Positions 775 through 41,022 of a stretch of 64,000 nucleotides of DNA are shown one piece after another. Origin of the DNA: an archaeon (GTDB lineage Archaea; Iainarchaeota; Iainarchaeia; Iainarchaeales; 1-14-0-10-31-34); assembly GCA_043815885.1 (NCBI GenBank), contig JBDRIL010000029.1, positions 3,249 through 67,248 of the forward strand, given 5' to 3'. A model generated the notes under the pieces. That model was given only the letters and a program-made list of their open reading frames with translations. It ran no database searches and was not told the DNA's origin. Made by a program: the position numbers and the translations under genes. The stretch's first letter is position 1. Every line of letters starts with the position of its first letter.

Positions 775-934
775 AACCAAGGCAATTTATTAAAATATCC
801 ATAACGGTATTAATATTATTTTAATAATGGTGCTAAATATTTATAAATAAATCGCTTCCTTCTATAATTTTCTTTTTAGTGGTCCAATAAAGGATTTAAC
901 GGGATTAATATATTAGTTAAAGAGTAATTATACT

Positions 935-2704
935 GTGTGCGGAATCATTGGTTTTGTTGGAAAACAGAGGGCAGACAGAATTATCTTTAATTCCCTGAAG
1001 AAGTTAGAGTACAGAGGATATGATTCTTGGGGGATGGCTTTTCCAGGAAAGGAAAGCATTGTTTCAGTGAAAAGAGTCGGAGCAATCTCTTCCCTCCCAA
1101 AAAAAACCAGTTTCAGCAATTCCTTCATTGGATTAGGGCATACGAGATGGGCAACACACGGAGGAGTGGAAGAAAAAAATGCTCACCCATTATTTTCCTG
1201 TGATAAAAGGATTGCCGTAGTGCATAACGGGATAATAGAGAATTTTTCTTCACTAAAAAAAGAATTAATCAAAAAAGGCCACAGGTTCAGGAGTGAAACT
1301 GATTCAGAGGTCATTGCACATTTAATTGAAGAGAGAGTTAAGAGAGGAGATGGACTGTTAAAGGCAGTTGCTTCCTCCTGCAGGAAACTGAATGGAAGTT
1401 ATGCTTTCCTGGTTTTTTCCCTGGATGAACCGGAGAAAATTATTGCAGTGAGGAATGAAAGTCCTTTGATTTTAGGGATCTCCAGAAAAGGAATCTTTGC
1501 TTCCTCTGATCAACTTCCAATTCTTTCCTTTACAAATAAATTTGTTTTTCTGGATGACGGAGAGATGGCTCTCCTTGAAAAAAATTCATTCAAGTGCTTT
1601 GCTCTTCCTTCCTTAAAACCAATAAAAAAACCAATTAATTCAATCACTTCAACCATCACTACCTCCGGAAAAAAGAAGTACAGTTACTTCATGATGAAGG
1701 AGATAATGGAACAACCCACAGTAATGAAGGATGTGCTGAGGCAGGAGAAAAAGAATTTTGATTCAATAAAGAAATTACTTGCAAAAAGAAGAATATTTTT
1801 TGTTGCAAACGGCACTTCATTCAATGCAGCAATGATTGGAAGAGATTACTTCAACAGAATTGCTGGAAAGAATTCAGAAGTAATCAATGCATCCGAATTC
1901 TGTTATGAGGCAGACTTCCTTCCAAAAAATTCAGTTTTAATTGCCATCTCCCAGAGCGGGGAAACAGCTGATGTGCTTGATGCAGTGAGGGAAGCAAAAA
2001 AGAAAAAACTTCCAGTTATTTCTGTTCTGAATATTTTTGGTTCAACCCTTGACAGAATGAGTGATAAAAGAATTTACCTGAATTGCGGGGAAGAAATTGG
2101 AGTAGCTTCAACCAAAGCCTTTACTTCTCAAGTGGCAATTCTTTATCTTTTGGCTAATGCATTGAATGGAAGATTCAATGAAGGATTGAAGGAATTAAGG
2201 GAGATTCCTAAAAAAATGAAGAAAACAATTCAATTGAATCATTCTAAAGTAATTAAATTAAGCAAGAAGATAAAGAACAAAAATGACGTTTACTTTATTG
2301 CCCGTTCAATTAATTTCCCTATTGCATTAGAGGGAGCATTAAAGTTAAAGGAAATCTCTTACCTTCATGCTGAAGCATTTTATGCAGGAGAACTGAAACA
2401 CGGGACACTTTCATTGATTGAATCAGCTACACCAGTAATAGCAATTGCTCCAAGCGATTCATGCATGAATGACACAATCAGAAACGCAATTGAAGCAAAG
2501 AGCAGAGGCGCAATGGTTGTTGGAGTGAGTGACAAAAAAAATAATTTATTTGATTTACAGCTATTGCTTCCAAAAACCTCTTCCCTTCTTTATCCATTGA
2601 TTGCAGTAGTTCCATTACAGTTGCTTTCCTATTACACTGCGATTTCTCTGAAGAGAAATCCGGATAAGCCAAGGAATCTGGCAAAGAGCGTGACAGTAAA
2701 ATGA
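935..2704 (+). CDS. glmS: glutamine--fructose-6-phosphate aminotransferase (isomerising)
   Basis: GTG start then Cys2 nucleophile (MCGIIGFVG), class-II amidotransferase N-terminus, two SIS domains, C-terminal KSVTVK typical of GlmS. Confidence 0.9.
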   Translation: MCGIIGFVGKQRADRIIFNSLKKLEYRGYDSWGMAFPGKESIVSVKRVGAISSLPKKTSFSNSFIGLGHTRWATHGGVEEKNAHPLFSCDKRIAVVHNGIIENFSSLKKELIKKGHRFRSETDSEVIAHLIEERVKRGDGLLKAVASSCRKLNGSYAFLVFSLDEPEKIIAVRNESPLILGISRKGIFASSDQLPILSFTNKFVFLDDGEMALLEKNSFKCFALPSLKPIKKPINSITSTITTSGKKKYSYFMMKEIMEQPTVMKDVLRQEKKNFDSIKKLLAKRRIFFVANGTSFNAAMIGRDYFNRIAGKNSEVINASEFCYEADFLPKNSVLIAISQSGETADVLDAVREAKKKKLPVISVLNIFGSTLDRMSDKRIYLNCGEEIGVASTKAFTSQVAILYLLANALNGRFNEGLKELREIPKKMKKTIQLNHSKVIKLSKKIKNKNDVYFIARSINFPIALEGALKLKEISYLHAEAFYAGELKHGTLSLIESATPVIAIAPSDSCMNDTIRNAIEAKSRGAMVVGVSDKKNNLFDLQLLLPKTSSLLYPLIAVVPLQLLSYYTAISLKRNPDKPRNLAKSVTVK

Positions 2705-3168
2705 TTTTAAGAAAAGCAAGAAAAAGCGATGCAAAAGGAATTGCAGAAGTAATGATTGAATTCTATAATATTTCTTCTATTAAGGAAGGAGTGAATGCAT
2801 TCAGGGAAGAAACATGTAGGGGGCATAATTTTATTGTAGCGATTGAAGGAAAAAAAGTGGTTGGATTTACTTCCTGGCTGGCGCATGGTTTGGCTAAACA
2901 CGGTCTGGCTGAATTGGACAGGATTGCTGTATTGGAGGAACTGAGAGGAAAAGGAACTGGAAAAAAACTATTCAATTTTCTGGAGAAGGAAGCAAAGGAA
3001 TACTACAAAAAAAGAAATTCAAGATTAAGAAAATTATTCATTTTAACGCATGCCTCAAATACAAAAGCTCAGGCATTTTATTCCTCGCTTGGATTAAAGC
3101 ATGAAACAACATTAAAGAATCATTATTATGCAGGGGAAGATGAATTCGTTTTCAGTAAATTTTTTTAA
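2701..3168 (+). CDS. GNAT-family N-acetyltransferase
   Basis: 155 aa; acetyl-CoA binding motif region RGKGTGKKLF; start overlaps glmS stop (ATGA). Confidence 0.7.
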   Translation: MILRKARKSDAKGIAEVMIEFYNISSIKEGVNAFREETCRGHNFIVAIEGKKVVGFTSWLAHGLAKHGLAELDRIAVLEELRGKGTGKKLFNFLEKEAKEYYKKRNSRLRKLFILTHASNTKAQAFYSSLGLKHETTLKNHYYAGEDEFVFSKFF

Positions 3169-3182
3169 TGAAGGTTTTTTGA

Positions 3183-4880
3183 ATGAAGATAAAGGCAGTT
3201 ATTTTTGATTTGGATGACACTCTTTTTGACTGCAGTGGAATGCTTGTAGAGAATGCAAGAAAACGCTCAGTAAAGGCAATGGTTAAAGCAGGACTGAATC
3301 TCGGCGAAAAGGAATTAATGCAGGAACAAAAAAAAGTATTGCAGGAAGATCCAAAATGTGATGTATTTGAATTAATTTTAAGGAACGCCAAGTTGAGTGA
3401 AAGAGAAAGAAAGAGGATTAAGAAGGCTGCACTGAAGGCATATAATTCAGATGTAGTTGAAAAAATAAAGCTCTTTCCAGATGTAATGCCTACTTTAAGG
3501 GAATTAAAGAAGAAAAAAATCAAGCTGGTAATAATTACCTCCGGCTTATACAGAAGACAGATGAAGAAAGTCAGGTTATTGAAGCTGAATAAATTAATGG
3601 ATTTAGTTTTAGTGCATGATATAGAGAAAGATCCCTCATTTTATCAGGAGCATTTTCTTGATGCACTAAAAAAATTCAATTTAAAGTCCTCTGAAGTGGC
3701 AGTGACTGGAGACAGGCTTTATGCAGAGATAAAGACTGCCAACAAGCTAGGAATGCATTCAATTCAGTTCATGCATGGAAGATTCAGGAAACTTAAACCA
3801 GAGAATGAATTAGAGAAGGCTGACTATAAAATCAGAAAGATTTCTGAAGTATTAAATATAATCAAAAAAATTGAGTCTCTTCCAACAAAAAAGGAATTTG
3901 AGGAACTGAAAGTAGTGGCAATTGGAGGAGGTACTGGACTGCCAAATGTATTGTTTGGATTAAAGAAATTTACTGCTAACCTTACTGCAATAGTTACTGT
4001 AACTGATTCAGGCAGAAGTTCGGGGAGACTGAGAAGAGAACTGAATGTATTGCCTCCAGGAGACATAAGGAATTGTTTGGTAGCGTTAAGTGATTCAGAA
4101 AAATTAATGAAGGACTTGTTCCAGTACAGGTTTTTTGGAGAGAATGAATTGAATGGCCACAGTTTTGGAAATTTATTTATTGCTGCTTTGGCTAAATTAA
4201 CTGGTTCTTTCGAAAAAGGAATTGAAAAGGCAAGCAATATCCTTGCAATAAAGGGAAGAGTGCTTCCTTCAACACTGGAAGACGTGTATCTTTGCGCTGA
4301 ATTAAAGAACGGAGAAATGATTGAAAGAGAGGAAGTAATCAGAAGCAAAGCCCTTCCAATAAAAAAGGTCTTCCTAAAACCATCAAATGCAAAACCACTG
4401 AATAAAGCAGTGAAAGCAATAATGGACGCAGATGCAATAGTTATTGGGCCGGGTTCATTGTTTACCTCCATTATCCCGAATCTCTTGGTTAATGGAATTC
4501 CTGAAGCAATAAAGAAATCCAAGGCAAAAAAGATTTATGTATCCAATATAGTTACCCAGCCAGACCAAACAAAAAACTTTACAGTCTCTGAACACGTAAA
4601 AACAATAGAAGAATATTTAGGAAAGAGAGTAATTGATTTTGTTATAATTAACAATATGCCCCCTCCAAAAAATTTATTGAAGAAATACAGGGAAGAAGAT
4701 TCAGGTTTAGTGAAGGCCAACAAAAAGGAATTAAAGAAAATCAATGCAAAAATAATTGAAGAAAACCTGATTGAAAAAATAAAGGAAGAAAAAAAACCCC
4801 TTCTATGGGAAAAAAAGTATTTATTAAGGCACGATCCATTCAAACTGGCTGAATGCATTCTGAGAACAGTGAAAGAATAG
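3183..4880 (+). CDS. HAD-superfamily hydrolase fused to YvcK/CofD-like (UPF0052, gluconeogenesis factor / 2-phospho-L-lactate transferase family) domain
   Basis: N-terminus has HAD motif I (VIFDLDDTLF). C-terminal half has VVAIGGGTGLPNVLFGLKKF...VTVTDSGRSSGRLRRELNVLPPGDIRNCLVAL, typical of the YvcK/CofD family. Confidence 0.7.
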   Translation: MKIKAVIFDLDDTLFDCSGMLVENARKRSVKAMVKAGLNLGEKELMQEQKKVLQEDPKCDVFELILRNAKLSERERKRIKKAALKAYNSDVVEKIKLFPDVMPTLRELKKKKIKLVIITSGLYRRQMKKVRLLKLNKLMDLVLVHDIEKDPSFYQEHFLDALKKFNLKSSEVAVTGDRLYAEIKTANKLGMHSIQFMHGRFRKLKPENELEKADYKIRKISEVLNIIKKIESLPTKKEFEELKVVAIGGGTGLPNVLFGLKKFTANLTAIVTVTDSGRSSGRLRRELNVLPPGDIRNCLVALSDSEKLMKDLFQYRFFGENELNGHSFGNLFIAALAKLTGSFEKGIEKASNILAIKGRVLPSTLEDVYLCAELKNGEMIEREEVIRSKALPIKKVFLKPSNAKPLNKAVKAIMDADAIVIGPGSLFTSIIPNLLVNGIPEAIKKSKAKKIYVSNIVTQPDQTKNFTVSEHVKTIEEYLGKRVIDFVIINNMPPPKNLLKKYREEDSGLVKANKKELKKINAKIIEENLIEKIKEEKKPLLWEKKYLLRHDPFKLAECILRTVKE

Positions 4881-4882
4881 AA

Positions 4883-6100
4883 TTATTTTTTTGGCTTCAT
4901 TACGATTAAAGTGTAGTTTTTTTCTTTCAGGAAGTTCTTTGCTGTTTCTTGTACTTGTTTTGAGGTAACGGAATGAATTCTTTTAAGGAAGTCTTTTGTG
5001 TACTTTACCTTGTTTCTCTTGTAATTAATCAGGTTTAAGGCTAAATCAAAATTGTTTTCTTCTGTGAGAAGCAGTTTTCCTTCAATGTATTGTTTTGCTT
5101 TATTCAATTCTTCTTTGGTTAGTTTTTTTTCTCTTAAGGCCTTTATTTCTTTTTCAATTAATTCCTTTACTAAAGGAATCTTTTCTTTTCTTGCCCCAAC
5201 ATACACGGCAAAGTAACCGAAGTAATTTCCTGCCTCTAAATGTGATTGTACTGCATAAGCAAGACCTCTCTTCTCCCTTATCTCCTGCATCAGCCTGCTA
5301 CTTAACCCACCCCCTAAATGAGCATTAATTACTTCCATTATATAGTGTTCTTTTTTAGTGGAAGGAGTGACCTGAAAACCATAAATTAAATGCGCCTGGC
5401 TTAATTCCCTTTTAATTAATTTGTTTCTTTCAGTTATTTTTTCTTTCCTGAATTCCTTTACATCTCTTGGTTTCTTTTTTTTCGTGGAAAATGATTCCTC
5501 AATTTTTTTCTTTACTTTCAATGGATTAATGTTTCCTACAACTGAAACAATTATGTTTGAAGGAGTGTAAAATTCATTAAAGTAATCAATGATGTTCTTT
5601 CTGCTGATTCCTTTCACTGTTTTCTTTGTTCCAATAATGCTCTTCATTTTATTGTCCTTAAAGCAGAGCTGCTGGAATAAATCAAAGAGGTAATTCGGAA
5701 CATTGTCCTTTATCTGGCTTATCTCTCTTAGAACAATCTTTTTCTCTAATTTAAGGTTTTTTTCCTTGAACAGGGAATTATTCAGGCAGTCCTGCAATAC
5801 GTCCAGTCCTTTACCAAAGTGCTTGTCCTGGACTTCAACAAAGAAACAAGTCATTTCATTGGAGGTGAATGCATTAATCTTTCCTCCAATTTTGTCAATC
5901 TCTTCAGCCAGTTCTTTCTTGTTTCTTTTCTTGGTTCCAGTGAAAGCCATGTGTTCAATTAAGTGAGCTATTCCTGAATGTTTTGTTTTCTCAAAAATTG
6001 AACCAAAATTAATTGAAATAAGGATTGCAACAGAATTACTGTCTTTTCTTTCCTTTACAAGCAGATTCAATCCATTACTCAAAACGAATTCTTTGATCAT
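4883..6100 (-). CDS. M16-family zinc metallopeptidase (insulinase-like)
   Basis: Inverted zinc-binding motif HLIEH (GIAHLIEHMAFTGT); two-domain M16 architecture; 405 aa. Confidence 0.8.
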   Translation of the reverse strand: MIKEFVLSNGLNLLVKERKDSNSVAILISINFGSIFEKTKHSGIAHLIEHMAFTGTKKRNKKELAEEIDKIGGKINAFTSNEMTCFFVEVQDKHFGKGLDVLQDCLNNSLFKEKNLKLEKKIVLREISQIKDNVPNYLFDLFQQLCFKDNKMKSIIGTKKTVKGISRKNIIDYFNEFYTPSNIIVSVVGNINPLKVKKKIEESFSTKKKKPRDVKEFRKEKITERNKLIKRELSQAHLIYGFQVTPSTKKEHYIMEVINAHLGGGLSSRLMQEIREKRGLAYAVQSHLEAGNYFGYFAVYVGARKEKIPLVKELIEKEIKALREKKLTKEELNKAKQYIEGKLLLTEENNFDLALNLINYKRNKVKYTKDFLKRIHSVTSKQVQETAKNFLKEKNYTLIVMKPKK

Positions 6101-6106
6101 AGAAAT

Positions 6107-9100
6107 TCACTGCACTACCTTGCCTGTAATTGCATCAATTCTCGCTTTTCTTTCCTTTCCATTTTCTTCCAGTGAAACGTAATAGAACGGCCTGTAAACC
6201 AGACTCACTTTTTTCACTATCACTGTCTTCCACATTTTCTGGAGAGACTTAATTACTTTTTCTTCAGAGAAATTAGCTTCGACTATTGAGACATTCTTTA
6301 ATTCAACCAAAGGCAATTCATTCAATGAATCAATCAATGAATGCCTTGAGTCAGGAGGAAGTTCTATCTCTCTGTTAAGGAAATAGGAGACCTTTCCCTC
6401 AGAACTAACTCTATCAACCAAACCCTTTTCAGTTAAATTGCCTAGAACTTTTTTTATTCTTGTTTCAGAGTAATTCTCTTCCTCCAGTTTTTCCTCCATT
6501 CCTTTCCTTTTAATTAAGCCAGCAAATACCTCTAACTGCTCTTCATCCAATTCCATTACCTTATTGAAGCCTCTTGATTCAATGAATTCATCATTCTTTA
6601 CGTGAATGAATTCCCCTGTAATGGCATTAATGAAACACGTAGTTGCAATGAATTCCTTGCTTTTGTTGAAGTCATTGAATGAAATCTTATAGACTGGCTC
6701 AAAAATAAGTTGAAGTTGCTTTACCTGCTCTTCCTTTCCAACCAACCCAAACCTTTTCCTTTTCCTTACCTTATTAACGATTTTCTTTGCTTCCTCTTCC
6801 TTTAATCTTAATGGAAATGAAAGAATGCTTTCCCTCTCTACCTTCTTTTCTTCCTGCTCTTTTATTCTTTCCTCTGCTTTTTCCTGTGCTTCCTTTATTA
6901 CTTCCTCTTTTTCCTTTAATTTTTCTGCAAGAACGACTCTGTCTGGTTCAATTACTGCCTTTCTTTCCTCCAATAAATCCAGTACAGAGGAAAGCATTGC
7001 CTTTGCCTTGTACTTGCTGTTCAATGAATTAATCAATTGATTGATTTTATCCATTCCTATTTCTCCATCCCTTCCTAATTCCCTGAACGCAATTTCCATT
7101 GCAAGGTTTTCCACCTGTTCCTTGCTCAGGCTTTTAACCAAAGAAATGGTTTCTGCATCCCTTCCCTCGTGCTGCGACATTCTTGGGCGGATACTCATCA
7201 CAAACGCTCTGCTTGTTTCCTCTCTCCTGTCACCAGTGAGAGCATAACCTATTGGAAGGCTTCTAATGAAATTGCTTTTCTTGTATTGGTGGGGAATGAT
7301 TGTAGGAATTCTCTTGTAAATAGCCTTTATGTCGTCATCAAAAACCAGTTTATGAGTCAAAAGAATATCCAATTGAGACAACACCCTTGTATCAATTGCT
7401 GATGGCTGCTGTGTAGCAAAAACTATACTGCAACCAGGCCTTCTTCCCTGCTTAACATACTCCACCAACGCATTTGTGGCAGGAGTATTTACATTTCCTG
7501 AAGGAATTAAGGTGTGGGCTTCATCAATAAACATCCAGGTAGGAGGAATATCTGTTTCAAGCAATGCATTCATTGAAGTAGCCTTCATTTTATTCGCTGA
7601 TTCTCTTCTAGTGGAAAGCTTTCTCGCTGAAAGAATTCTCCTTGCAAGAATTCCAATAACCAATGCAGTAACATTTGCTTCAAGAAAACTTGTATCCAAT
7701 ACAGTCAACTGGTTTTCTCTGGAGAGTTCCCCCAAAGGAGTTCCCTTTTCATCAAAGATCCCCCAGGACTTCGCTGCCTCAAACCTGCTGACTAACGCCC
7801 TAATGGAATCCTGTTTGTAGCCTCTTTCCCTGCTATTCAATTCTTCATCTGTCTCCAGACAGTTTATCATGCCATCCAGAGAAAAACCCTGCTTGTTTGC
7901 CTTAACGTATTTTCCTTCAATTGTCTTGTATCCATGCTCTACTTTTTTAATTACCTTATCCAAAAGCAAGCCGCTTGGACCAAATCTCTCCATTCCAAAA
8001 GTCAAACACCAGTCCTCTGAGGTAAGCAGTGAAGGCTGAATTGAAAAGGTTGCATCATAAGTGTTTTTTGGAGTTTCATTCTTCATTCCTGCTGGAATGA
8101 ATACCTTAAGGTTATCAAGGCCTTGAGGTTCTAACCCCCACTCAATCAATGCACTTAATTCCTTTTCTTCCTTGTTTGCATACTTCATGCTCCAGAACAC
8201 TCCAATAGGATCAATTACTACTATTCCAACATTGCTGTTTTTCAGTGCCAGTTCCTCTGCAATCACTCCAAGAACGTATGAATTATGAACAATTATATCG
8301 TTTGCAACAAAATTATAGTATTCTGGAACAGAAATATCATATACATCTTCTCCAGGAATTTCTTTTAACTCAGTTACCTCATCCCAAAAAATATCTGATT
8401 CTGCTATCATCTGTACTCCTTTATTCCCTTCAATCTGAGCCATTCTCAGTAACTTTTTTCTGGAAGGCGCGTAAGTTAAGGAACTATGGACGTAGTTTGG
8501 ATTATAACCCATTGCTCTCGAAGCAGCCTTACAATTTTTTGGTCTATAAATGCCCCAGATTTCTTTCGGAATAGTGTCTACATTTGGATTTCTTGAAACC
8601 TCAAGCATGTCTTTTATTGCATTTTCCTGTTTTAGTTCTTTTACCCCAAAAAAACCGATTTCCTGAATGAATCTGATTACACTTTCAGATGAAATAACTA
8701 ATTCAAAGGAATTGAATTTTTTCTCGTTACATTTGACTTTTTTGAACCTAAGCCTAGAGAGTATCCCAAATCTAATCAAAAGATTCTGCACTTGCCTTAT
8801 CATTTTATCTGAAGAACTAGAATAAGAAACCTGCCAATTATTTTTTCTTCTACTTATCGGATGAATACTGCCGTCACAACTGAAAAGCCTGTTCAGGAAT
8901 AATGCCAGCTGTTCTTTAGGAAGTTTTAATACTTCTTCTGGAATAACTTTCTCCTTTGTTAGCTTTCCATATAATCCAATGCTTTCAAACCATTTTGCCA
9001 GAGAACTCTTTTGCGCGACAATAAACCCTTTGCTTGTAAATTGCCCTTTTTTGTTTCTAACAACATTTGTTAAATCAATTGGTTTCTTTTTTTGTGCAAC

Positions 9101-10288
9101 TCTATAGCATCCGATTTTACTATGCACTTCTATTCTTAGGTTTTCATCAAATTCCTTTATGCTTTGGGAGAAATCTTCAAGAATTTTTTTGTCTTCGTTA
9201 CTGAATAAAACAAATGCATTTCTTAGATGCCCTTCCGCAATAAAGTAAGCCAATAACTTAATATCACACTCTCTCATCCTAGTGTTGCCAAATACATTAA
9301 GTGCCCTTGGCACTGCTATCCTGTCTTTTGCTTTTAGTTCTTGGGTTTGCATCCATCCATTAATTGTTAGGAGAGGATGTTCGGGAGTCAATTTTATTTC
9401 CCTTCCACTCCTTAACCGCAAATAAAGCAATTTGCTCACTTTTCTCTTATAAAATCCTTCTTTTTTCAATGGAACTACTTTTAGTTCATGGTTTAATCCA
9501 AGAACCCGTTTATCATTGTTTTCTAGTTCCTTTATAGGAATAACCGAGCCATCTTCCAAGGTTATCAATGAATCGCCAGTAAGGCATTTTCCACTCCCAC
9601 GAGCACCGCAAACAAACACTACATGAGGATTCAGTCCGTCAAGAAAAACCTTTTTTTTATTGTATCCCTCTTCCTCCAGCCTTCCAATCAATAATGCTGC
9701 ATCAGATCCATAATTAAGGAAAACTGATTTCTTTCTTCCAATGAATACAGATTCATTTTTCTCGTCCTCCAGAAATTGCAGAGGCATTGAATTTGCTGGA
9801 ACTTCTTCCACAAATTTTTCTTCTGGTTCAGGAGCGCCTTCCATTTCACTTATTGTTTCCCCGCGCTCTTCCTTTTCCTCTTCAACTTCTTCCTCTATTT
9901 CCTTTGTTGCAGACTTCAAAGCCTTTCTCAGAATGAGTTTCTTTAATTCATTTTTTGGAGGCAATTCCTTCTTCAATTCCTCCTCTGGTTCTTCAATGTT
10001 TTCCTCTTCTGCTTCCTCGTTTTCTTCCAATTCAATTTCCTTTTCAATTGACTTGTTTTCTTTTTTTTCCTTTGCGCCAATGCTTTTCTCAAAAGCTTCA
10101 GCTTTTGCGCCACTGCTTTTTTCAAAAGCGGTGTTTTCTTTTTCTGGCTTTATTGTCTTAATGATTTCCTCTACATGTTTTTCCTTTTTCCCGTCAAATA
10201 CCTCGTCAAATATATCCACGTCCTCCTTTACCCTGGATTTCTGTACTCTCTCTTCTGGAGAGAGTTCCCTTGGTTTTTCTTCATTCAT
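6107..10288 (-). CDS. HerA/FtsK-superfamily (DUF87-like) P-loop ATPase with an acidic low-complexity N-terminus and an intein inside Walker A
   Basis: Extein Walker A is GARGSGK|S (reconstituted across the intein). Walker B is MFIDEAH. HerA-like motif TQQPSAIDTRVLSQLDILLTHKL. The N-terminal ~220 aa are an E/K-rich linker. Confidence 0.75.
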   Translation of the reverse strand: MNEEKPRELSPEERVQKSRVKEDVDIFDEVFDGKKEKHVEEIIKTIKPEKENTAFEKSSGAKAEAFEKSIGAKEKKENKSIEKEIELEENEEAEEENIEEPEEELKKELPPKNELKKLILRKALKSATKEIEEEVEEEKEERGETISEMEGAPEPEEKFVEEVPANSMPLQFLEDEKNESVFIGRKKSVFLNYGSDAALLIGRLEEEGYNKKKVFLDGLNPHVVFVCGARGSGKCLTGDSLITLEDGSVIPIKELENNDKRVLGLNHELKVVPLKKEGFYKRKVSKLLYLRLRSGREIKLTPEHPLLTINGWMQTQELKAKDRIAVPRALNVFGNTRMRECDIKLLAYFIAEGHLRNAFVLFSNEDKKILEDFSQSIKEFDENLRIEVHSKIGCYRVAQKKKPIDLTNVVRNKKGQFTSKGFIVAQKSSLAKWFESIGLYGKLTKEKVIPEEVLKLPKEQLALFLNRLFSCDGSIHPISRRKNNWQVSYSSSSDKMIRQVQNLLIRFGILSRLRFKKVKCNEKKFNSFELVISSESVIRFIQEIGFFGVKELKQENAIKDMLEVSRNPNVDTIPKEIWGIYRPKNCKAASRAMGYNPNYVHSSLTYAPSRKKLLRMAQIEGNKGVQMIAESDIFWDEVTELKEIPGEDVYDISVPEYYNFVANDIIVHNSYVLGVIAEELALKNSNVGIVVIDPIGVFWSMKYANKEEKELSALIEWGLEPQGLDNLKVFIPAGMKNETPKNTYDATFSIQPSLLTSEDWCLTFGMERFGPSGLLLDKVIKKVEHGYKTIEGKYVKANKQGFSLDGMINCLETDEELNSRERGYKQDSIRALVSRFEAAKSWGIFDEKGTPLGELSRENQLTVLDTSFLEANVTALVIGILARRILSARKLSTRRESANKMKATSMNALLETDIPPTWMFIDEAHTLIPSGNVNTPATNALVEYVKQGRRPGCSIVFATQQPSAIDTRVLSQLDILLTHKLVFDDDIKAIYKRIPTIIPHQYKKSNFIRSLPIGYALTGDRREETSRAFVMSIRPRMSQHEGRDAETISLVKSLSKEQVENLAMEIAFRELGRDGEIGMDKINQLINSLNSKYKAKAMLSSVLDLLEERKAVIEPDRVVLAEKLKEKEEVIKEAQEKAEERIKEQEEKKVERESILSFPLRLKEEEAKKIVNKVRKRKRFGLVGKEEQVKQLQLIFEPVYKISFNDFNKSKEFIATTCFINAITGEFIHVKNDEFIESRGFNKVMELDEEQLEVFAGLIKRKGMEEKLEEENYSETRIKKVLGNLTEKGLVDRVSSEGKVSYFLNREIELPPDSRHSLIDSLNELPLVELKNVSIVEANFSEEKVIKSLQKMWKTVIVKKVSLVYRPFYYVSLEENGKERKARIDAITGKVVQ
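8282..9586 (-). mobile_element. intein (435 aa) with LAGLIDADG homing-endonuclease domain, inserted in the P-loop of the HerA-like ATPase
   Basis: Begins CLTGDSLITLEDG right after GARGSGK. LAGLIDADG blocks LLAYFIAEGH and LALFLNRLFSCDGS. Ends NDIIVHN, followed by Ser+1. Coordinates were derived by codon counting. Confidence 0.85.
10103..10138. repeat. 36-nt imperfect-hairpin repeat (TTTTGCGCCACTGCTTTTTTCAAAAGCGGTGTYTTC), in-frame within the HerA-like gene; a degenerate tandem copy lies at ~10071-10102
   Basis: Near-identical copies lie in the P0 gene at 27369-27404 and 27534-27570. On the coding (minus) strand it encodes TAFEKSSGAK. Confidence 0.8.
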
Positions 10289-10862: not shown

Positions 10863-10936
10863 GGGCCGGTAGCACAACCTGGTAATGCGCTCGGTTCGCA
10901 TCCGAGAGAATTCGGGTTCAAATCCCGACCGGTCCA
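10863..10936 (+). tRNA. tRNA-Ala (anticodon CGC)
   Basis: Hand-folded cloverleaf: acceptor GGGCCGG/CCGGTCC with a G3:U70 pair (the Ala identity element); anticodon loop TTCGCAT; T-loop TTCAAAT; discriminator A. No intron. Confidence 0.85.
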
Positions 10937-18065: not shown

Positions 18066-19124
18066 TCACTGGCCATTGGCTTCCAATTCAATGATTTCGT
18101 TTATTTTTTGGAGAATGCATTTGTTTCCGGGATTTATTTCGGATTCCATTAATTTTTGCCTGTAGGATTCTTCTTTTTCAAAGAATTCTTCTAGGGAAGA
18201 AATGGAATGAGTTTCTTGCACTGAACCAAAACCGAGTTTTTGAATCATTGAGCCATTATAGTATCTTTCGGAGAAGGCCTTTGAACTGCACACGTAAAGA
18301 GGTTTTTTCAGGAAAACTGATTCTGCGAGAGTGCTTTGACCTCCATGGGTTAGAACTGCACTGCATTCCAGCAGGTCTTTTTCGAATTCTTTTTCACTCA
18401 TTCCCTTGAATACAAGATTGCCGGAATTAATTTCTTTTTCTGTCCCGTAAATAATGAATTTCTTTTCAGGGAATCTATTAAGGAGCGGGAGAAGGGCAGT
18501 TAATTCCTCTTCCATAAAATACACTACGTAATAGTCTTTTTTCTTTGGATTGTTTTTAAAGAAGTAATTTCTTACAATTGGATTAAAGAAGAAATCATTT
18601 TTATTGCAGGAGGAAGGATGAATAAAGGAAGTGATGAGGAAGTAATCTGATTCAATGAATGCATTAATAATCGGTTTATCGAGAATGTGGAAGGTTATCT
18701 TTTGATTGAAATTCATTGGAAATTTGATGTAATTCATTGAGTGCATTACTGAAAGGGTTACTACTGGCAGCCTGAATAATTTTCCTATGTAAACCCCGTT
18801 TACATCGAAATCAGAGACAATTAAATCAGGCTTGAATTTTCGGACTAATTTAATTAATTTCACCATATTGGAGGCAGCAATATAGGGGACTTTTGGAACA
18901 TTGTAGGCAAAGGTCCTGAACCGCTTAAGCCTTCCATTCCTGTAAACCAGATTAAACCAGTTAATTTTTTCATTGTAATGGAATTTCTTCTGGAGGTAAT
19001 CATGCGCTTCCCCGGAAGAAACAACAAATACCTTGTGTTCCTTTATTAATCCCTCTATTAATTGGCTGCTTCTTGTAGCATGACCTAAACCAACACCGCA
19101 TACAGTGAACAAAATTCTAGCCAT
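18066..19124 (-). CDS. GT1/GT28-family (MurG/UGT-like) glycosyltransferase
   Basis: N-terminal MARILFTVCGVGLGHATRS resembles the MurG/MGT G-loop; C-terminal THGGQSTLAESV donor-binding motif. Confidence 0.7.
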   Translation of the reverse strand: MARILFTVCGVGLGHATRSSQLIEGLIKEHKVFVVSSGEAHDYLQKKFHYNEKINWFNLVYRNGRLKRFRTFAYNVPKVPYIAASNMVKLIKLVRKFKPDLIVSDFDVNGVYIGKLFRLPVVTLSVMHSMNYIKFPMNFNQKITFHILDKPIINAFIESDYFLITSFIHPSSCNKNDFFFNPIVRNYFFKNNPKKKDYYVVYFMEEELTALLPLLNRFPEKKFIIYGTEKEINSGNLVFKGMSEKEFEKDLLECSAVLTHGGQSTLAESVFLKKPLYVCSSKAFSERYYNGSMIQKLGFGSVQETHSISSLEEFFEKEESYRQKLMESEINPGNKCILQKINEIIELEANGQ

Positions 19125-19131
19125 TTCTTTA

Positions 19132-19950
19132 TCACTTAATTAATTCATTCAATACATTAAATGGAGCAGTGAACTGGACTGAGGAAGGGTTAATCATTAC
19201 TTTTACATTGGAAAAATAAATGGTTAAAGGAGTGAAAGAAGTCTTTGATCTTTCTTCAATCAAATAAATTAATTTGTCTGCTGACTTAAACGGAAGAGAA
19301 AGGTTGTTGGCTTTTGGATTTAAATTGAATTCGCTTGCTGTCTTCTCCAGGAATTCTTTATCGCTTGATTCAAGCAGGAACTCCTCAATATTCATTTTTT
19401 CTGCAATCAATTTAATCTTTTTAAGGTTATCACTGTTAAACTCTAAGTTCAATGAATCATTGAAGCTAAGCTCCTTCAATGATTGGAGTTGCTCGGAAAA
19501 AACCTTATTCAGGTAATTCAAGTGCTTTATCCTCTTATCCAGTTTTGTCTTCAATAAATCAAGTTCAGAAAGAGAAAATTCAGCTGAATTTCTCGCCAGC
19601 TTCAGTAAATCATTGTCATTCTTTGACCTCTCAATCAGTATCTGCATTTTTTCCACTATTGAAGGGATTTCCTCCACGCTTGACTTGGATTGAATTAACT
19701 GATTCAATTTAATCACCAGCTTGTTCTTCATTTCACGGTTTATTTCTGAAGTGCCTTTATCAGTAATAAAAAAATTGTTTTCCCTTCTGTTCACTAAACC
19801 AAAAGAAGTTGCTTCCTTCAGGAACCTTGAAAGAGTGGCGCGGGCAGAATTAACTGAATTATACCCAGATGCAATCTTTCCAAGCAAGGCATTATAGGAG
19901 ATGCCCTGATTCTGCTTGATTATTAACAAAATTGAATTTTTAGTGGTCAC
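19132..19950 (-). CDS. hypothetical protein with an N-terminal wHTH-like domain and coiled-coil
   Basis: 272 aa; N-terminal LLIIKQNQGISYNALLGKIASGYNSVNSARATLSRFLKEATSFGLV resembles a winged helix. Confidence 0.35.
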   Translation of the reverse strand: MTTKNSILLIIKQNQGISYNALLGKIASGYNSVNSARATLSRFLKEATSFGLVNRRENNFFITDKGTSEINREMKNKLVIKLNQLIQSKSSVEEIPSIVEKMQILIERSKNDNDLLKLARNSAEFSLSELDLLKTKLDKRIKHLNYLNKVFSEQLQSLKELSFNDSLNLEFNSDNLKKIKLIAEKMNIEEFLLESSDKEFLEKTASEFNLNPKANNLSLPFKSADKLIYLIEERSKTSFTPLTIYFSNVKVMINPSSVQFTAPFNVLNELIK

Positions 19951-19989: not shown

Positions 19990-20565
19990 TTAGGGCAACC
20001 AAGAATTATTTTTCCTGTAAAAAATTATTAAAGAAACAGCCAATAATACAATCAACAAAGATAAATGATTTGCTTCAGGAAAGCCTGGAGTTCTCTTCAC
20101 TGCATTAGTCCAGATGGTTTTTCTTGAATTATCATACAAATGCTCTTCTGTTATGCCTTCTGATTCATCCAAGTAAGCTTCAGCTACAACGTAATAATTT
20201 TCGATTTCATCCAACTCAAAAGTCAATACAGTCTTATCAAATACATGAGTTTTTTCTAATGTTGCTCCTGCTCCAATAAGTTCTGCATCAAAAGATTCTT
20301 CAAATTCCTCCCCGCCAATAGGAAAACCTTTTTTATCAGCAATATAGAAATTCACGTCAACCAATCTTTCAACCGCATCGTAATTCCTTATATATGCAGT
20401 CGCAGACAGAGACGAATCTGGGCCTCTGACAGACGGATCAACTACAACCTTCTTCACTGCAATAACATTGCCTGCAGGCGCATCGCTATTGACGAAACCA
20501 ATAACTGCAAATAAAATTAAAAATAAAATTATTATTTTTTTCATTTCTTTTCCTGCCAAGCTCAA
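19990..20565 (-). CDS. secreted protein with signal peptide and a PGF-CTERM-like C-terminal anchor
   Basis: N-terminal hydrophobic signal (IIILFLILFAVIGFVNS). The C-terminus is TPGFPEANHLSLLIVLLAVSLIIFYRKNN, a PGF tripeptide then a TM helix then basic residues. Confidence 0.5.
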   Translation of the reverse strand: MSLAGKEMKKIIILFLILFAVIGFVNSDAPAGNVIAVKKVVVDPSVRGPDSSLSATAYIRNYDAVERLVDVNFYIADKKGFPIGGEEFEESFDAELIGAGATLEKTHVFDKTVLTFELDEIENYYVVAEAYLDESEGITEEHLYDNSRKTIWTNAVKRTPGFPEANHLSLLIVLLAVSLIIFYRKNNSWLP

Positions 20566-27218: not shown

Positions 27219-28502
27219 TTATTTCTTCTCCTTTTTTTTGGTTTCTTTCTTTTCTACTGGTTTCTCTTCTTTCTTGGGTTTCTTTTTTGCTTCTTCTTTT
27301 TTTCCAGTCTTTTTTTCTTCCATCTTTGGTTTCTCTTCTTTCTCTTTTTCTTCCTTTGGTTCCTCTTCTTTTGCGCCACTGCTTTTTCTAAAAGCGGTGT
27401 CTTCTTTCTTTGGTTTTTCCTTTGCTTCTTTTTCTTCAACTTTAGGTTTTTCTTTTATTTCTTTTTTCTCCTCGCCTTTCTTCTCTTCTGGCTTCTCCTC
27501 TTTTTTTGGGTCTTCCTCGGGTTTCTTTTCTTCTTTTGCGCCACTGCTTTTTTCAAAAGCGGTGTCTTCCTTTTTCTCTTCTTTAGAGTCTTCTTTCTTT
27601 TCTTCAGCTTTCTCTTCTTTGGCTTCCTTTTTTTCCTCTTTAGATTCTTTTGTTGCTTCGGGTTCCTTCACCATTGATTTCAGTGAATCTGCCTGAAGGT
27701 TTGCCTTTCCGAGAAGATTGCTGATTGTTTCCTTGTTGAAGATTTCTGCATCCAATGCAACACTAAGGGAATCCCTGTATGCCTTGGACAAAAACAGCTT
27801 TATTGTGTCTTCATTAGTGTAATAAATATTTAAAGCCAGATTGAGTGAATTCCTGTAGGCTTGCTGGAAGTCACTGAACAGCTCGTCTATATCAATGTCC
27901 ATTACTTCTGCCTTGAATATCTCTCCCTTTTCATATACTGCAATTACATTTAATCCAACCTTTATTGGCTTAATATTCAGTTTCTGGAGAGTGCCTGAAA
28001 CAACCTTTGAGATTTCTTCTCCTTTCCTGCATACAGTCTTGTCTTCTGAAATAAAGATTGAGCTTCCCTGAATCCTTACCTTTAATCCTGCTCCCTTTAA
28101 GTCACTTAGTGCAGGGCCTGGAGGCAAACCAGTATCTCCTGCAGGAACAAGGATATCATCAGGGGCAATTATTCCGGGTTTTGCTGAAACCCTTCCTTTA
28201 TTCTTTTTAATTAAAGCATAGAGTTCAAATGGATTCATTTGAGTGAAGATTATTGCAACTGAGCCTTTAACTTCTTCAAGCAATTTGCTTTCCTTTAGCT
28301 TTGATTCCTTTAATGCATTTAGTATTACTCTGGTTTTGGAAACCTTTATTACTGCTTTATCATGCAATAACTTCCTTATGTCCTGGAAGAGGTTGGCTGG
28401 AAATCCAGTAATATCAGCTACAGCAATAACCGGATAACTCTCAATTAACTGTTTTAATTCAGTTACTTCCTTTTTCTTCCATTCAGTTGTATGACGGGTC
28501 AT
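27219..28502 (-). CDS. rplP0: ribosomal stalk protein aP0 (uL10) with an expanded K/E-rich C-terminal tail
   Basis: uL10 N-domain (VIAVADITGFPANLFQDIRKLL). The tail of ~150 aa is K/E repeats carrying two copies of EDTAF(E/R)KSSGAKEE and ends KKEKK rather than GLGALFG. Confidence 0.85.
   Translation of the reverse strand: MTRHTTEWKKKEVTELKQLIESYPVIAVADITGFPANLFQDIRKLLHDKAVIKVSKTRVILNALKESKLKESKLLEEVKGSVAIIFTQMNPFELYALIKKNKGRVSAKPGIIAPDDILVPAGDTGLPPGPALSDLKGAGLKVRIQGSSIFISEDKTVCRKGEEISKVVSGTLQKLNIKPIKVGLNVIAVYEKGEIFKAEVMDIDIDELFSDFQQAYRNSLNLALNIYYTNEDTIKLFLSKAYRDSLSVALDAEIFNKETISNLLGKANLQADSLKSMVKEPEATKESKEEKKEAKEEKAEEKKEDSKEEKKEDTAFEKSSGAKEEKKPEEDPKKEEKPEEKKGEEKKEIKEKPKVEEKEAKEKPKKEDTAFRKSSGAKEEEPKEEKEKEEKPKMEEKKTGKKEEAKKKPKKEEKPVEKKETKKKEKK
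27369..27404. repeat. 36-nt hairpin repeat copy in the P0 tail (encodes DTAFRKSSGAK)
   Basis: TTTTGCGCCACTGCTTTTTCTAAAAGCGGTGTCTTC; 35/36 identical to 27534-27570 and 10103-10138. Confidence 0.8.
27534..27570. repeat. 36-nt hairpin repeat copy in the P0 tail (encodes DTAFEKSSGAK)
   Basis: TTTTGCGCCACTGCTTTTTTCAAAAGCGGTGTCTTCC. Confidence 0.8.
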
Positions 28503-38886: not shown

Positions 38887-40355
<1,469 letters not shown>

Positions 40356-40428
40356 ATTCCAAAAAAAACGGAAACAATAAAAAAGCTCTCATCTTTTTTT
40401 ATAAAGGAAACAGAATTAAAGTGATTAA

Positions 40429-41019: not shown

Positions 41020-41022
41020 AAA

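What the first reader, a model, noticed from the sequence alone, without database searches (positions are those of the whole stretch)
935..4880. glmS - GNAT - HAD::YvcK(CofD-like) cluster, pairing an archaeal GlmS with a fused GlmR-like partner
The gene after glmS and a GNAT acetyltransferase encodes a HAD hydrolase/phosphomutase-type domain fused to a UPF0052 YvcK/CofD-family domain. In Firmicutes the YvcK homologue GlmR binds UDP-GlcNAc and stimulates GlmS. Finding a YvcK-family domain immediately downstream of glmS in an archaeon, fused to a HAD domain and with a GNAT in between, suggests a compact amino-sugar module. It hints at a eukaryote-like GlcN6P N-acetyltransferase route (GNA1-like) rather than GlmU.
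Basis: inference. Interest (0 to 1): 0.6.

Follow-up and report, generated by a model that had tools for sequence, protein, structure and literature searches.

The report
Archaeal amino-sugar operon with HAD-YvcK fusion
A small archaeon carries a three-gene operon (GlmS, a lineage-specific acetyltransferase, and a phosphatase fused to a variant YvcK/GlmR domain) that most likely makes and controls the sugar building block UDP-GlcNAc by an unusual, partly eukaryote-like route, and it offers a natural test of what YvcK/GlmR proteins do.

Summary
Window 935-4880 holds three tightly packed co-directional genes: glmS, a 155-aa GNAT, and a 565-aa HAD::YvcK fusion.

- **The fusion is conserved.** More than 120 protein clusters share the architecture, in DPANN archaea and Planctomycetota.
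- **The fusion marks a distinct YvcK subtype.** All about 45 fused or split copies read D-[S/T/E]-G-R-S-S-G. About 75 standalone YvcK copies read D-D-G-G-S-S-G. None of the fused loci has the canonical yvcJ/whiA neighbours.
- **The HAD domain is phosphatase-like** (PH1655/NANP), not beta-phosphoglucomutase-like.
- **The same HAD subfamily has other pathway partners.** Elsewhere it is fused or adjacent to GlmM-like mutases and GlmU-N-like nucleotidyltransferases.
- **The window's GNAT is not a GNA1 homologue** by sequence or fold. It is coupled to glmS in several DPANN lineages. In three related loci a true GNA1 homologue occupies the identical slot between glmS and the fusion.

Best reading: this is a UDP-GlcNAc module in which the GNAT is a functional analogue of GNA1. 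HAD::YvcK acts at the nucleotide-sugar end, as an accessory uridylyltransferase or UDP-GlcNAc sensor plus a phosphatase. Biochemistry and genome-wide GlmM/GlmU content remain untested. I rate it a new variant of a known kind, of moderate to high interest.

The parts
905..916 (+). A/T-rich TATA-like box (ATTAATATATTA) about 20-30 nt upstream of the glmS GTG; possible promoter of a leaderless transcript
   Evidence: Read directly from the sequence. This is inference only. The sigma-70 scan is not applicable to archaea.
935..2704 (+). glmS, glutamine--fructose-6-phosphate aminotransferase (589 aa), with an N-terminal Cys2 nucleophile
   Evidence: TIGR01135 671 bits (cutoff 418); GATase_6/7 plus 2 SIS domains. 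No glmS ribozyme or other Rfam hit lies upstream.
2701..3168 (+). 155-aa GNAT of a DPANN-specific family with acetyl-CoA motif R82-G-K-G-T-G87; proposed glucosamine-phosphate N-acetyltransferase (analogue of GNA1)
   Evidence: The Pfam GNAT models match. The family has 94 clusters at 39-88% identity, all about 155 aa, named from Woesearchaeota, Nanoarchaeota and Micrarchaeota. Its start overlaps the glmS stop. It lies directly after glmS in every locus examined, although in L090 only a 65-aa glmS remnant remains.
3183..4880 (+). HAD::YvcK fusion protein (565 aa)
   Evidence: The AF2 model has pLDDT 93.1 and pTM 0.81.
3183..3872 (+). HAD-IA (C1-cap) phosphatase-type domain, aa 1-230. Catalytic motifs are intact: D9/D11 (I), T119 (II), K149 (III), G176-D177...E182 (IV)
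   Evidence: The best family is TIGR02253/CTE7 at 113 bits (below its cutoff of 170); beta-PGM scores only 30 bits. The closest structures are PH1655 (2hoq) and NANP/HDHD4. Motifs were read from alignments A1 and A4.
3207..3221 (+). HAD motif I, D9-L-D11-D-T13, within the family signature FDLDDTL[FY]DC
   Evidence: Invariant in 119 fused proteins. The signature is shared with HAD::GlmM-like, HAD::NTP_transferase and split HADs.
3912..4865 (+). YvcK/GlmR-type (CofD-fold) domain, aa 244-561
   Evidence: TIGR01826 374 bits (cutoff 196); the CofD equivalog TIGR01819 scores only 41 bits. Foldseek against BH3568 (2o2z): TM 0.95, rmsd 1.4-1.6 A. Y502 aligns with B. halodurans Y264, which corresponds to B. 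subtilis Y265, a UDP-GlcNAc-site residue (PMC7525490).
4002..4025 (+). Subtype-defining loop T274-D275-S276-G277-R278-S-S-G281, in place of A-D-D-G-G-S-S-G of standalone YvcK
   Evidence: Motif census: all about 45 fused or split copies have D-[S/T/E]-G-R, and about 75 standalone copies have D-D-G-G. The DD pair is the one mutated to abolish uridyltransferase activity in L. monocytogenes and B. subtilis GlmR (PMC10128056, PMC13046274).

Best explanation
The three genes form one operon of a DPANN (Micrarchaeota-labelled) archaeon that feeds, and probably controls, UDP-GlcNAc synthesis.

Step 1 (shown by homology): GlmS makes GlcN-6-P.

Step 2 (inferred from gene context): the 155-aa GNAT N-acetylates the glucosamine phosphate. 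It is translationally coupled to glmS. It acts as a functional analogue, not a homologue, of eukaryotic GNA1. It supplies the acetyltransferase activity that the truncated GlmU-like nucleotidyltransferases of these lineages lack.

Step 3 (inferred): a GlmM-like mutase and a GlmU-N-like nucleotidyltransferase, encoded elsewhere in the genome, carry the flux on to GlcNAc-1-P and UDP-GlcNAc.

Step 4 (inferred, least certain): the HAD::YvcK protein works at this nucleotide-sugar end. Its YvcK/GlmR-type domain is a distinct D-S-G-R subtype that keeps the UDP-GlcNAc-site tyrosine. It binds UDP-GlcNAc and acts as an accessory GlcNAc-1-P uridylyltransferase and/or a sensor that feeds back on GlmS. The fused, catalytically intact HAD phosphatase removes a phosphorylated by-product or intermediate. 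Pyrophosphate is the most parsimonious candidate.
For: - **Operon structure.** There is a 4-nt overlap and a 14-nt gap between the genes, and a convergent gene follows the unit.
- **The triad recurs.** It is found in the window, L081, L085/86, L091, L122, L172 and L173. L090 keeps the GNAT and the fusion plus a 65-aa glmS remnant. Locus GC ranges from 29 to 52%.
- **The glmS-GNAT pair stands alone in Woesearchaeota** (L169-L171), without the fusion.
- **In-slot displacement.** L085, L172 and L173 carry a GNA1 homologue at the same position. Its PDB hits are 3fb3, 3t90, 2vez, 1i12 and 2huz, at E 1e-18 to 5e-10.
- **A GNA1-order route exists in a prokaryote.** L174 has a GlmM-like gene, then an NTP_transferase without an LbH domain, then a GNA1-like GNAT.
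- **The HAD subfamily is tied to this pathway.** It is fused to an Arch_GlmM-like mutase (P0281) and to an Arch_glmU N-half (P0323, the gene in L149). It sits in operons YvcK-HAD-PGM (L007), HAD-PGM-NT (L119) and HAD::YvcK-NT (L003). It also lies beside glmM-glmU in a bacterium (L110, L118, L127).
- **Domain competence.** All HAD motifs are intact, and the fold is phosphatase-like. The YvcK domain is above the curated cutoff, matches BH3568 at TM 0.95, and keeps Y502 (B. subtilis Y265), N433 (L. monocytogenes N198) and D275.
- **Published background.** GlmR binds UDP-GlcNAc and stimulates GlmS (PMC7525490, PMC6171935). It has uridyltransferase activity in vitro, and that activity is needed in vivo in L. 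monocytogenes and B. subtilis (PMC10128056, PMC13046274).
Against: - The window's GNAT is closest to Nat/RimI/polyamine GNATs. It shows no specific GNA1 signal. It could be a protein acetyltransferase; B. subtilis GlmR is itself acetylated.
- The second Asp of the catalytic DD pair is Ser in this subtype. Uridylyltransferase activity may therefore be altered or lost.
- S. aureus data question GlmR uridyltransferase activity in cells.
- YvcK co-occurs with conventional nucleotidyltransferases (L003, L110). It is therefore not needed as the only uridylyltransferase.
- Four of 11 non-redundant archaeal relatives of the window's type, and all Planctomycetota and Woesearchaeota fusion loci, lack glmS next to the fusion.
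- The HAD substrate is unknown. Its matches to pyrophosphatase PpaX are weak (49 bits).
- Nothing could be checked outside the 64-kb window for this genome.
Confidence: 0.45

Rival explanations
1. Purely regulatory module. The YvcK domain is a UDP-GlcNAc sensor with no catalysis. When the nucleotide sugar is scarce, it activates the co-encoded GlmS, as B. subtilis GlmR does. It may also gate the fused HAD phosphatase, which drains excess GlcN-6-P or GlcNAc-6-P as an overflow valve.
For: - The UDP-GlcNAc-site residue Y502 is invariant and R549 is nearly invariant (PMC7525490).
- The second catalytic Asp is lost.
- The domain is adjacent to glmS in 7 loci.
- It co-occurs with ordinary nucleotidyltransferases.
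- The same HAD subfamily is also fused to signalling domains: GAF-SpoIIE (P0278) and a receiver domain (P0270).
- There is in vivo doubt about the uridyltransferase activity.
Against: - The putative catalytic pocket residues D275, G277, R278, G281 and N433 are invariant in 119 sequences. This suggests a working ligand or catalytic site rather than a relic.
- Most fusion loci have no glmS nearby.
- L. monocytogenes GlmR does not interact with its GlmS.
Confidence: 0.27
2. Mutase bypass. HAD::YvcK converts GlcNAc-6-P to GlcNAc-1-P in two steps. The CofD-fold domain performs an anomeric phosphotransfer, giving a 1,6-bisphosphate. The HAD domain then removes the 6-phosphate. The logic matches HldE/GmhB in heptose activation. 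This would make the operon GlmM-independent.
For: - The CofD family catalyses phospho-group transfer, and PDB 2q7x is annotated 'putative phospho transferase'.
- The HAD's second-best family is a sugar bisphosphate phosphatase that leaves a sugar 1-phosphate (NF053830, 69 bits).
- No mutase gene lies in the window.
Against: - The HAD/YvcK module sits next to, or is fused with, ordinary GlmM-like mutases (L007, L110, L119, P0281), which would make it redundant.
- No kinase activity has been reported for any YvcK.
Confidence: 0.07
3. CofD-like transferase plus phosphatase. The YvcK domain uses UDP-GlcNAc, or another NDP-linked compound, as a donor. It transfers the phospho-sugar to an acceptor and releases UMP. 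The HAD domain then dephosphorylates the product or hydrolyses UMP. This would resemble synthase/phosphatase pairs such as Neu5Ac-9-P synthase with NANP.
For: - The CofD fold is present.
- The HAD domain resembles NANP and YjjG-type pyrimidine nucleotidases.
- The altered D-S-G-R loop suggests a changed substrate.
Against: - No acceptor or product can be named.
- The neighbourhood is dominated by enzymes that make UDP-GlcNAc, not by consumers of it.
- The CofD equivalog model scores far below its cutoff.
Confidence: 0.08
4. The GNAT is unrelated to sugars. It would be a Nat/RimI-like protein N-acetyltransferase, possibly modifying GlmS or YvcK, that happens to be syntenic with glmS.
For: - The best PDB and NCBIfam matches are archaeal Ard1/SSO0209, RimI and polyamine acetyltransferases.
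- B. subtilis GlmR is regulated by lysine acetylation.
Against: - The matches are weak: 26 bits to SSO0209, and rimI at 54 bits is below its cutoff of 86.
- glmS-GNAT coupling holds across Micrarchaeota-, Diapherotrites- and Woesearchaeota-labelled contigs with different downstream genes.
- A bona fide GNA1 homologue replaces it in the same slot in three loci.
Confidence: 0.12

Closest known systems
GlmR/YvcK of Firmicutes and Actinobacteria (TIGR01826; structures 2o2z/2hzb BH3568 and 2ppv)
   Same: The domain scores above the curated cutoff (374 bits) and has the same fold (TM 0.95). The glycine-rich N-terminal loop, the first Asp, the Asn equivalent to L. monocytogenes N198 and the Tyr equivalent to B. 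subtilis Y265 are conserved. It shares the thematic link to GlmS and UDP-GlcNAc.
   Different: It has an N-terminal HAD phosphatase fusion. Its loop reads D-S-G-R instead of D-D-G-G. It has no yvcJ (rapZ-like) or whiA neighbours: 0 of 50 fused loci against 33 and 17 of 73 standalone loci. The host is an archaeon, whereas PMC7525490 states that the archaeal homologues are CofD.
Eukaryotic GNA1 (glucosamine-6-phosphate N-acetyltransferase, EC 2.3.1.4) and its prokaryotic homologues found here (P0215-P0250)
   Same: The window's GNAT has the GNAT fold. It has the same genomic slot, after glmS and before HAD::YvcK, as true GNA1 homologues in L085, L172 and L173. It has the same proposed reaction.
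   Different: The window's GNAT belongs to a separate DPANN-only family, about 27% identical to the L085 GNA1-like protein. The family profile gives no GNA1 hit at E<=1e-3, and none appears in the Foldseek top 50. A precedent for independent origin exists: the Apicomplexa-specific GNA1 family (PMC5838249, title and abstract seen).
PH1655 / TIGR02253 (CTE7) HAD hydrolases and NANP (N-acylneuraminate-9-phosphatase, HDHD4)
   Same: It shares the C1-cap HAD-IA fold and all four catalytic motifs. These are the best sequence and structure matches: 2hoq at E 2e-23, plus 2w4m and 4knw.
   Different: It scores below the TIGR02253 cutoff (113 against 170 bits). It has its own signature (FDLDDTL[FY]DC, HG[RK] and a conserved C-terminal extension of about 30 aa). 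It has a unique set of fusion partners: YvcK, GlmM-like and GlmU-N-like. Its substrate is unknown.
Archaeal/bacterial GlmS-GlmM-GlmU pathway (TIGR03990 Arch_GlmM, TIGR03992 Arch_glmU)
   Same: It has the same end product and the same first enzyme. Relatives place GlmM-like and GlmU-like genes next to the HAD/YvcK module.
   Different: In DPANN relatives the GlmU-like gene is only the nucleotidyltransferase half (L003, L174, P0323). A GNAT next to glmS is the candidate acetyltransferase. This implies acetylation before the mutase step, which is the eukaryotic order.

Membership tests
GlmS (TIGR01135) | Equivalog HMM score above the curated cutoff; class-II glutamine amidotransferase domain plus two SIS domains | tested here: met
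   671.4 bits against a cutoff of 418; GATase_6/7 and 2 SIS stretches.
GlmS (TIGR01135) | N-terminal catalytic cysteine directly after the initiator Met | tested here: met
   The translation starts M-C-G-I-I-G.
GNA1 (GlcN-6-P N-acetyltransferase) | GNAT fold with acetyl-CoA motif R/Q-x-x-G-x-G/A | tested here: met
   R82-G-K-G-T-G87. The AF2 model has pLDDT 95.9 and a GNAT topology.
GNA1 (GlcN-6-P N-acetyltransferase) | Specific sequence or profile similarity to GNA1 over other GNAT families | tested here: not met
   phmmer and the family profile against PDB give Nat/SSO0209 and diamine/spermidine NATs first, with no GNA1 at E<=1e-3. Foldseek's top 50 contains no GNA1. By contrast, the L085 slot-mate hits GNA1 at 1e-18 to 5e-10.
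GNA1 (GlcN-6-P N-acetyltransferase) | Acetylates GlcN-6-P | not testable with these tools
   Only gene context speaks for it.
YvcK/GlmR (TIGR01826) | Subfamily HMM above cutoff and the BH3568-type fold | tested here: met
   374.5 bits against a cutoff of 196; TM 0.95-0.96 to 2o2z/2hzb.
YvcK/GlmR (TIGR01826) | UDP-GlcNAc-binding residues (B. subtilis Y265 and R301) | tested here: inconclusive
   Y502 aligns with B. halodurans Y264, equivalent to B. subtilis Y265, and is invariant. R549 in the conserved LLRHD motif is the likely R301 equivalent, but it was not aligned to a B. subtilis sequence here.
YvcK/GlmR (TIGR01826) | Catalytic triad mutated in L. monocytogenes GlmR3 (D40, D41, N198; B. subtilis D38, D39) | tested here: not met
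   D275 and N433 are conserved, but the second Asp is Ser276. The next-but-one Gly is Arg278. This holds in every fused copy.
YvcK/GlmR (TIGR01826) | yvcJ(rapZ-like)-yvcK-whiA gene neighbourhood | tested here: not met
   0 of 50 fused loci, the window included, against 33 (YvcJ) and 17 (WhiA) of 73 standalone loci.
CofD (F420 2-phospho-L-lactate transferase, TIGR01819) | Equivalog HMM above cutoff | tested here: not met
   40.9 bits against a cutoff of 257. The Foldseek match to 3c3d is only TM 0.71 at 17% identity.
HAD-IA phosphatases, TIGR02253 (CTE7) group | Four HAD motifs and a C1 cap | tested here: met
   D9/D11, T119, K149 and G176-D177/E182, with a helical cap at 20-87 in the model.
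HAD-IA phosphatases, TIGR02253 (CTE7) group | Subfamily HMM above the curated cutoff | tested here: not met
   113.5 bits against a cutoff of 169.75. It is the best-scoring HAD-domain family model but falls below threshold.
beta-phosphoglucomutase (TIGR01990) | Equivalog HMM above cutoff, or beta-PGM as the nearest structure | tested here: not met
   30 bits against a cutoff of 189. The nearest structures are phosphatases (PH1655, NANP, PGPase).

The most novel reading that the evidence does not exclude
HAD::YvcK may be the catalytic end of a UDP-GlcNAc pathway that is independent of GlmU, and possibly of GlmM, in DPANN archaea and some Planctomycetota. In this reading the D-S-G-R YvcK subtype is the principal GlcNAc-1-P uridylyltransferase, or a phosphotransferase that bypasses the mutase together with the HAD 6-phosphatase. 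The DPANN-specific GNAT would be an independently evolved GlcN-6-P N-acetyltransferase. Together they would give a four-activity, three-gene pathway assembled from non-orthologous parts.
Probability: 0.15. Interest if true: 0.8.

Novelty: new variant of a known kind. Interest (0 to 1): 0.6.

Why it matters
The function of YvcK/GlmR is actively disputed. One view makes it a GlmS activator and UDP-GlcNAc sensor. Another makes it an accessory uridylyltransferase. Recent S. aureus work doubts that it has this activity in cells.

A large, previously undescribed clade bears on this dispute in three ways:
- The domain is welded to a competent phosphatase.
- The domain carries a fixed change in the disputed catalytic loop.
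- The module sits beside glmS/GNA1 in some lineages and beside glmM/glmU-type genes in others.

This gives a natural experiment and clear constructs to test.

The finding also points to a prokaryotic, eukaryote-order hexosamine route: acetylation by a GNAT, then a mutase, then a truncated GlmU. At least two unrelated GNAT families would fill the acetylation step. This matters for metabolic reconstruction of DPANN archaea and of Planctomycetota. These organisms depend on UDP-GlcNAc for S-layer glycans or peptidoglycan.

Tried and rejected
- **Beta-PGM-type mutase for the HAD domain.** Rejected on HMM scores, nearest structures and the adjacency of true phosphohexomutases.
- **CofD/F420 role.** Rejected: TIGR01819 is far below its cutoff.
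- **GNA1 homology of the window's GNAT.** Tested three ways and rejected. Profile A3 gave weak GNA1 hits only because it contained the L085 sequence; the clean profile A5 did not.
- **'YvcK simply replaces the nucleotidyltransferase'.** I considered this after finding HAD::NTP_transferase fusions. I weakened it when L003 and L110 showed both together.
- **glmS riboswitch or other RNA element.** None was found; Rfam reported only a tRNA.
- **General glmS linkage for standalone YvcK.** Only 2 of 73 loci had glmS within 10 kb.
- **Look-up of the window's own contig.** This failed because it is not on record.
- **afdb50 fold library.** It was unavailable.
- **Literature searches.** I searched for HAD-YvcK fusions, prokaryotic or DPANN GNA1 routes, and Micrarchaeota UDP-GlcNAc synthesis. 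Nothing relevant turned up.
- **Genome-wide glmM/glmU absence.** This could not be tested. No such gene is in the window.

Full report
**1. What is in the window**

Window 935-4880 contains three co-directional ORFs with no room for anything else.
- glmS lies at 935-2704 and encodes 589 aa. It starts with GTG and reads M-C-G-I.
- A 155-aa GNAT lies at 2701-3168. Its ATG overlaps the glmS stop as ATGA.
- A 565-aa ORF lies at 3183-4880, 14 nt further on.

HMM searches give the following.
- GlmS scores 671 bits on TIGR01135 (cutoff 418).
- The GNAT matches only generic GNAT models. Its best NCBIfam hit is rimI at 54 bits, below the cutoff of 86.
- The third protein has a HAD domain at residues 1-230. 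The best match is TIGR02253/CTE7 at 113 bits (cutoff 170). Beta-PGM scores only 30 bits.
- The third protein also has a CofD-fold domain at residues 244-561. It scores 374 bits on the YvcK subfamily model TIGR01826 (cutoff 196) and only 41 bits on true CofD.

The next gene, an M16 peptidase, is convergent. Rfam finds no riboswitch, only a tRNA at 10863-10936. An A/T-rich TATA-like box lies about 20-30 nt before the GTG.

The host is an archaeon, since L1, L10P, L11, Spt5 and FtsZ are in the window. Identical proteins are deposited as 'archaeon' and 'Candidatus Micrarchaeota archaeon'.

**2. The fusion is a large, conserved family**

The 120 best hits in a 5.8-billion-protein search all share the HAD+CofD architecture. 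They are 48-57% identical over about 99% of the length (one truncated hit covers 85%). Their names come from Diapherotrites/Iainarchaeum, unclassified archaea and Planctomycetota/Brocadiia. Genome and metagenome scans added Woesearchaeota, Brocadiaceae and Loosdrechtia loci.

In 119 aligned members, all HAD catalytic positions are conserved: D9, D11, T13, G121 and G176-D177 are invariant, K149 sits in an EKDPSF motif like that of NANP, and E182 is invariant. A set of YvcK positions is also invariant: G248-G250, D275, G277, R278, G281, N433 and Y502.

An AlphaFold2 model is confident (pLDDT 93.1, pTM 0.81). By Foldseek, the C-terminal domain superposes on B. halodurans YvcK (2o2z) with TM 0.95. 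The N-terminal domain is closest to PH1655 (2hoq), human NANP/HDHD4 and phosphoglycolate phosphatases, not to beta-phosphoglucomutase.

**3. The fused YvcK is a distinct subtype**

I ran a motif census over all fetched loci.
- Every fused copy (about 45) reads D-[S/T/E]-G-R-S-S-G. So does the one split copy, L007.
- About 75 standalone YvcK copies read D-D-G-G-S-S-G.

The DD pair, together with an Asn that equals N433 here, is what was mutated to abolish uridyltransferase activity in L. monocytogenes GlmR (PMC10128056) and B. subtilis GlmR (PMC13046274). The tyrosine needed for UDP-GlcNAc binding in B. subtilis (Y265; PMC7525490) aligns with the invariant Y502. The partner arginine is probably R549.

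The canonical yvcJ and whiA neighbours were detected in 33 and 17 of 73 standalone loci. They were found in none of 50 fused loci. PMC7525490 states that the archaeal homologues of glmR are CofD. This clade is therefore an unreported archaeal YvcK.

**4. Neighbourhood of the fusion**

The glmS-GNAT-fusion triad recurs in the window, L081, L085/86 (Diapherotrites GCA_002688035.1), L091, L122, L172 and L173. L090 keeps the GNAT and the fusion behind a 65-aa glmS remnant. GC content across these loci ranges from 29 to 52%.

Four of the 11 non-redundant loci of the window's type (those with the DUF87 neighbour, counting the window itself) lack glmS there. So do all Woesearchaeota and Planctomycetota fusion loci. 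Standalone YvcK is rarely near glmS (2 of 73 loci). One of those two, L016, reads yvcK-glmM-glmS.

**5. The GNAT**

The window's GNAT belongs to a compact family of 94 clusters, nearly all about 155 aa and 39-88% identical, named from Woesearchaeota, Nanoarchaeota and Micrarchaeota. In three Woesearchaeota contigs it again follows glmS directly, overlapping its stop in two of them, with unrelated genes downstream. The glmS-GNAT pair is therefore the most stable association.

The family is not GNA1.
- The single sequence and a clean family profile hit archaeal Ard1/SSO0209 and polyamine acetyltransferases in PDB. No GNA1 appears at E<=1e-3.
- A confident model (pLDDT 95.9) has only generic GNATs among its top 50 structural matches.

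However, in L085/86, L172 and L173 the slot between glmS and the fusion holds a different GNAT. It is 27% identical to the window's. This one is a clear GNA1 homologue: its PDB hits are T. brucei, Arabidopsis, Aspergillus, yeast and human GNA1 at E 1e-18 to 5e-10. JGI annotates members of that family as glucosamine-phosphate N-acetyltransferase.

Two unrelated GNATs in one slot is the signature of non-orthologous displacement. It is the strongest argument that the window's GNAT acetylates a glucosamine phosphate. An independently evolved GNA1 family is already known in Apicomplexa (PMC5838249, seen).

**6. The rest of the pathway in relatives**

- L174/L175 carry a GlmM-like mutase, a 239-aa nucleotidyltransferase that matches only the N-terminal half of archaeal GlmU, and a GNA1-like GNAT in a row. 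That is a eukaryote-order route in a prokaryote.
- In Woesearchaeota L003 the fusion is followed, with a 4-nt overlap, by a 235-aa nucleotidyltransferase without an LbH domain.
- In L007 the module is split and permuted: YvcK (D-T-G-R type), then HAD, then a phosphohexomutase, with overlapping genes.
- L119 reads HAD-mutase-nucleotidyltransferase.
- In a bacterial lineage (L110, L118, L127) the fusion and a second HAD paralogue lie beside convergent glmM and full-length glmU.

**7. Fusion partners of the HAD subfamily**

A profile of the HAD domain alone finds 165 clusters at E<=1e-30 among 1.84 billion representatives. They are a mix of fused and standalone forms. Members with the same signature are fused to several partners.
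- An Arch_GlmM-like mutase: P0281, 687 aa.
- A GlmU-N-like nucleotidyltransferase: P0323, 487 aa, labelled 'archaeon', the gene in L149.
- Less often, signalling domains.

The HAD subfamily is thus a regular companion of the sugar-1-phosphate and nucleotide-sugar steps. YvcK is one of several partners.

**8. Interpretation**

What is shown:
- The operon is real.
- The fusion is conserved.
- The fused YvcK subtype is distinct.
- The HAD domain is phosphatase-like.
- The genetic association with UDP-GlcNAc pathway genes recurs.

What is inferred:
- The GNAT is a GNA1 analogue that compensates for truncated GlmU.
- HAD::YvcK acts at the UDP-GlcNAc end.

Because YvcK co-occurs with ordinary nucleotidyltransferases, it is more likely an accessory enzyme and/or sensor than the sole uridylyltransferase. 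Firmicutes likewise have both GlmU and GlmR.

For the HAD domain, pyrophosphate removal best fits its partnership with two different PPi-releasing enzyme types. Amino-sugar phosphates, a sugar bisphosphate or UMP remain possible. The family matches to PpaX, RuBP 5-phosphatase, YjjG and NANP are all weak. The S. aureus preprint doubts GlmR catalysis in vivo. Together with the loss of the second Asp, this keeps a purely regulatory reading alive.

**9. Limits**

- The genome outside the 64-kb window could not be examined. No PGM_PMM, NTP_transferase or Hexapep gene occurs among the 49 window ORFs scanned.
- Neighbourhood counts come from a few dozen loci, some of them related.
- No paper in the searchable library describes the fusion or a DPANN GNA1-type route.

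**10. Verdict**

Novelty: a new variant of a known kind, namely a HAD-fused, loop-variant YvcK/GlmR clade set in an archaeal glmS-GNAT operon. Interest: 0.6.

Noticed in passing
window 6107-10288 (-): A 1393-aa DUF87/HerA-like ATPase is interrupted by an intein (about residues 236-660, with LAGLIDADG in relatives). An orthologue lies convergently just downstream of the HAD::YvcK gene in almost every archaeal locus of this type (L081-L086, L089-L092, L094, L172, L173), whether or not glmS is present. In the window an M16 peptidase (4883-6100) is inserted between them. This may be functional coupling or just old synteny.
   Followed up: partly
L090 7263-7460: A 65-aa ORF matches only the first 35 residues of GlmS. 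It sits directly upstream of the GNAT and the fusion on a 533-kb contig. It appears to be a decayed glmS, which suggests that the triad is ancestral and was eroded in this lineage.
   Followed up: partly
window 31204-35085 (+): A 1293-aa anaerobic ribonucleotide reductase NrdD carries an N-terminal NrdR-like zinc ribbon, two ATP-cones and an intein with a LAGLIDADG domain. It is the second intein-bearing gene in the window.
   Followed up: no
window 38929-45587 (+): A near-complete de novo pyrimidine operon is present: pyrB, pyrI, an unknown 196-aa ORF, pyrD, pyrK-like, pyrC, pyrE and pyrF. An OPT-family transporter and a Fumble/pantothenate-kinase-like gene follow. This is notable for a DPANN genome and is relevant to UTP supply.
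   Followed up: no
window 18066-19124 (-): A Glyco_trans_1_3 (MurG-like GT) gene is a possible UDP-sugar consumer. Two neighbouring ORFs (19132-19950 and 19990-20565) have no Pfam match.
   Followed up: no
window 27219-28502 (-): The ribosomal protein L10/P0 ORF is 427 aa, but the Pfam domains cover only the first ~177 residues. The C-terminal extension is unusually long.
   Followed up: no
window 60852-61973 (-): An IS240-type DDE transposase lies near the end of the window, flanked by several ORFs without family matches.
   Followed up: no
L001, L095, L102, L110, L114, L118, L127 (just after the fusion gene): Bacterial fusion loci (L001 is labelled Planctomycetota) carry a second, standalone paralogue of the same HAD subfamily immediately downstream of HAD::YvcK. 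In L110, L118 and L127 it lies next to convergent glmU and glmM.
   Followed up: partly
P0278 and P0270: The same HAD subfamily is also fused to GAF+SpoIIE (a PP2C phosphatase, RsbU-like) and, with CofD, to an N-terminal response-regulator receiver. This hints at a signalling role in some lineages.
   Followed up: no
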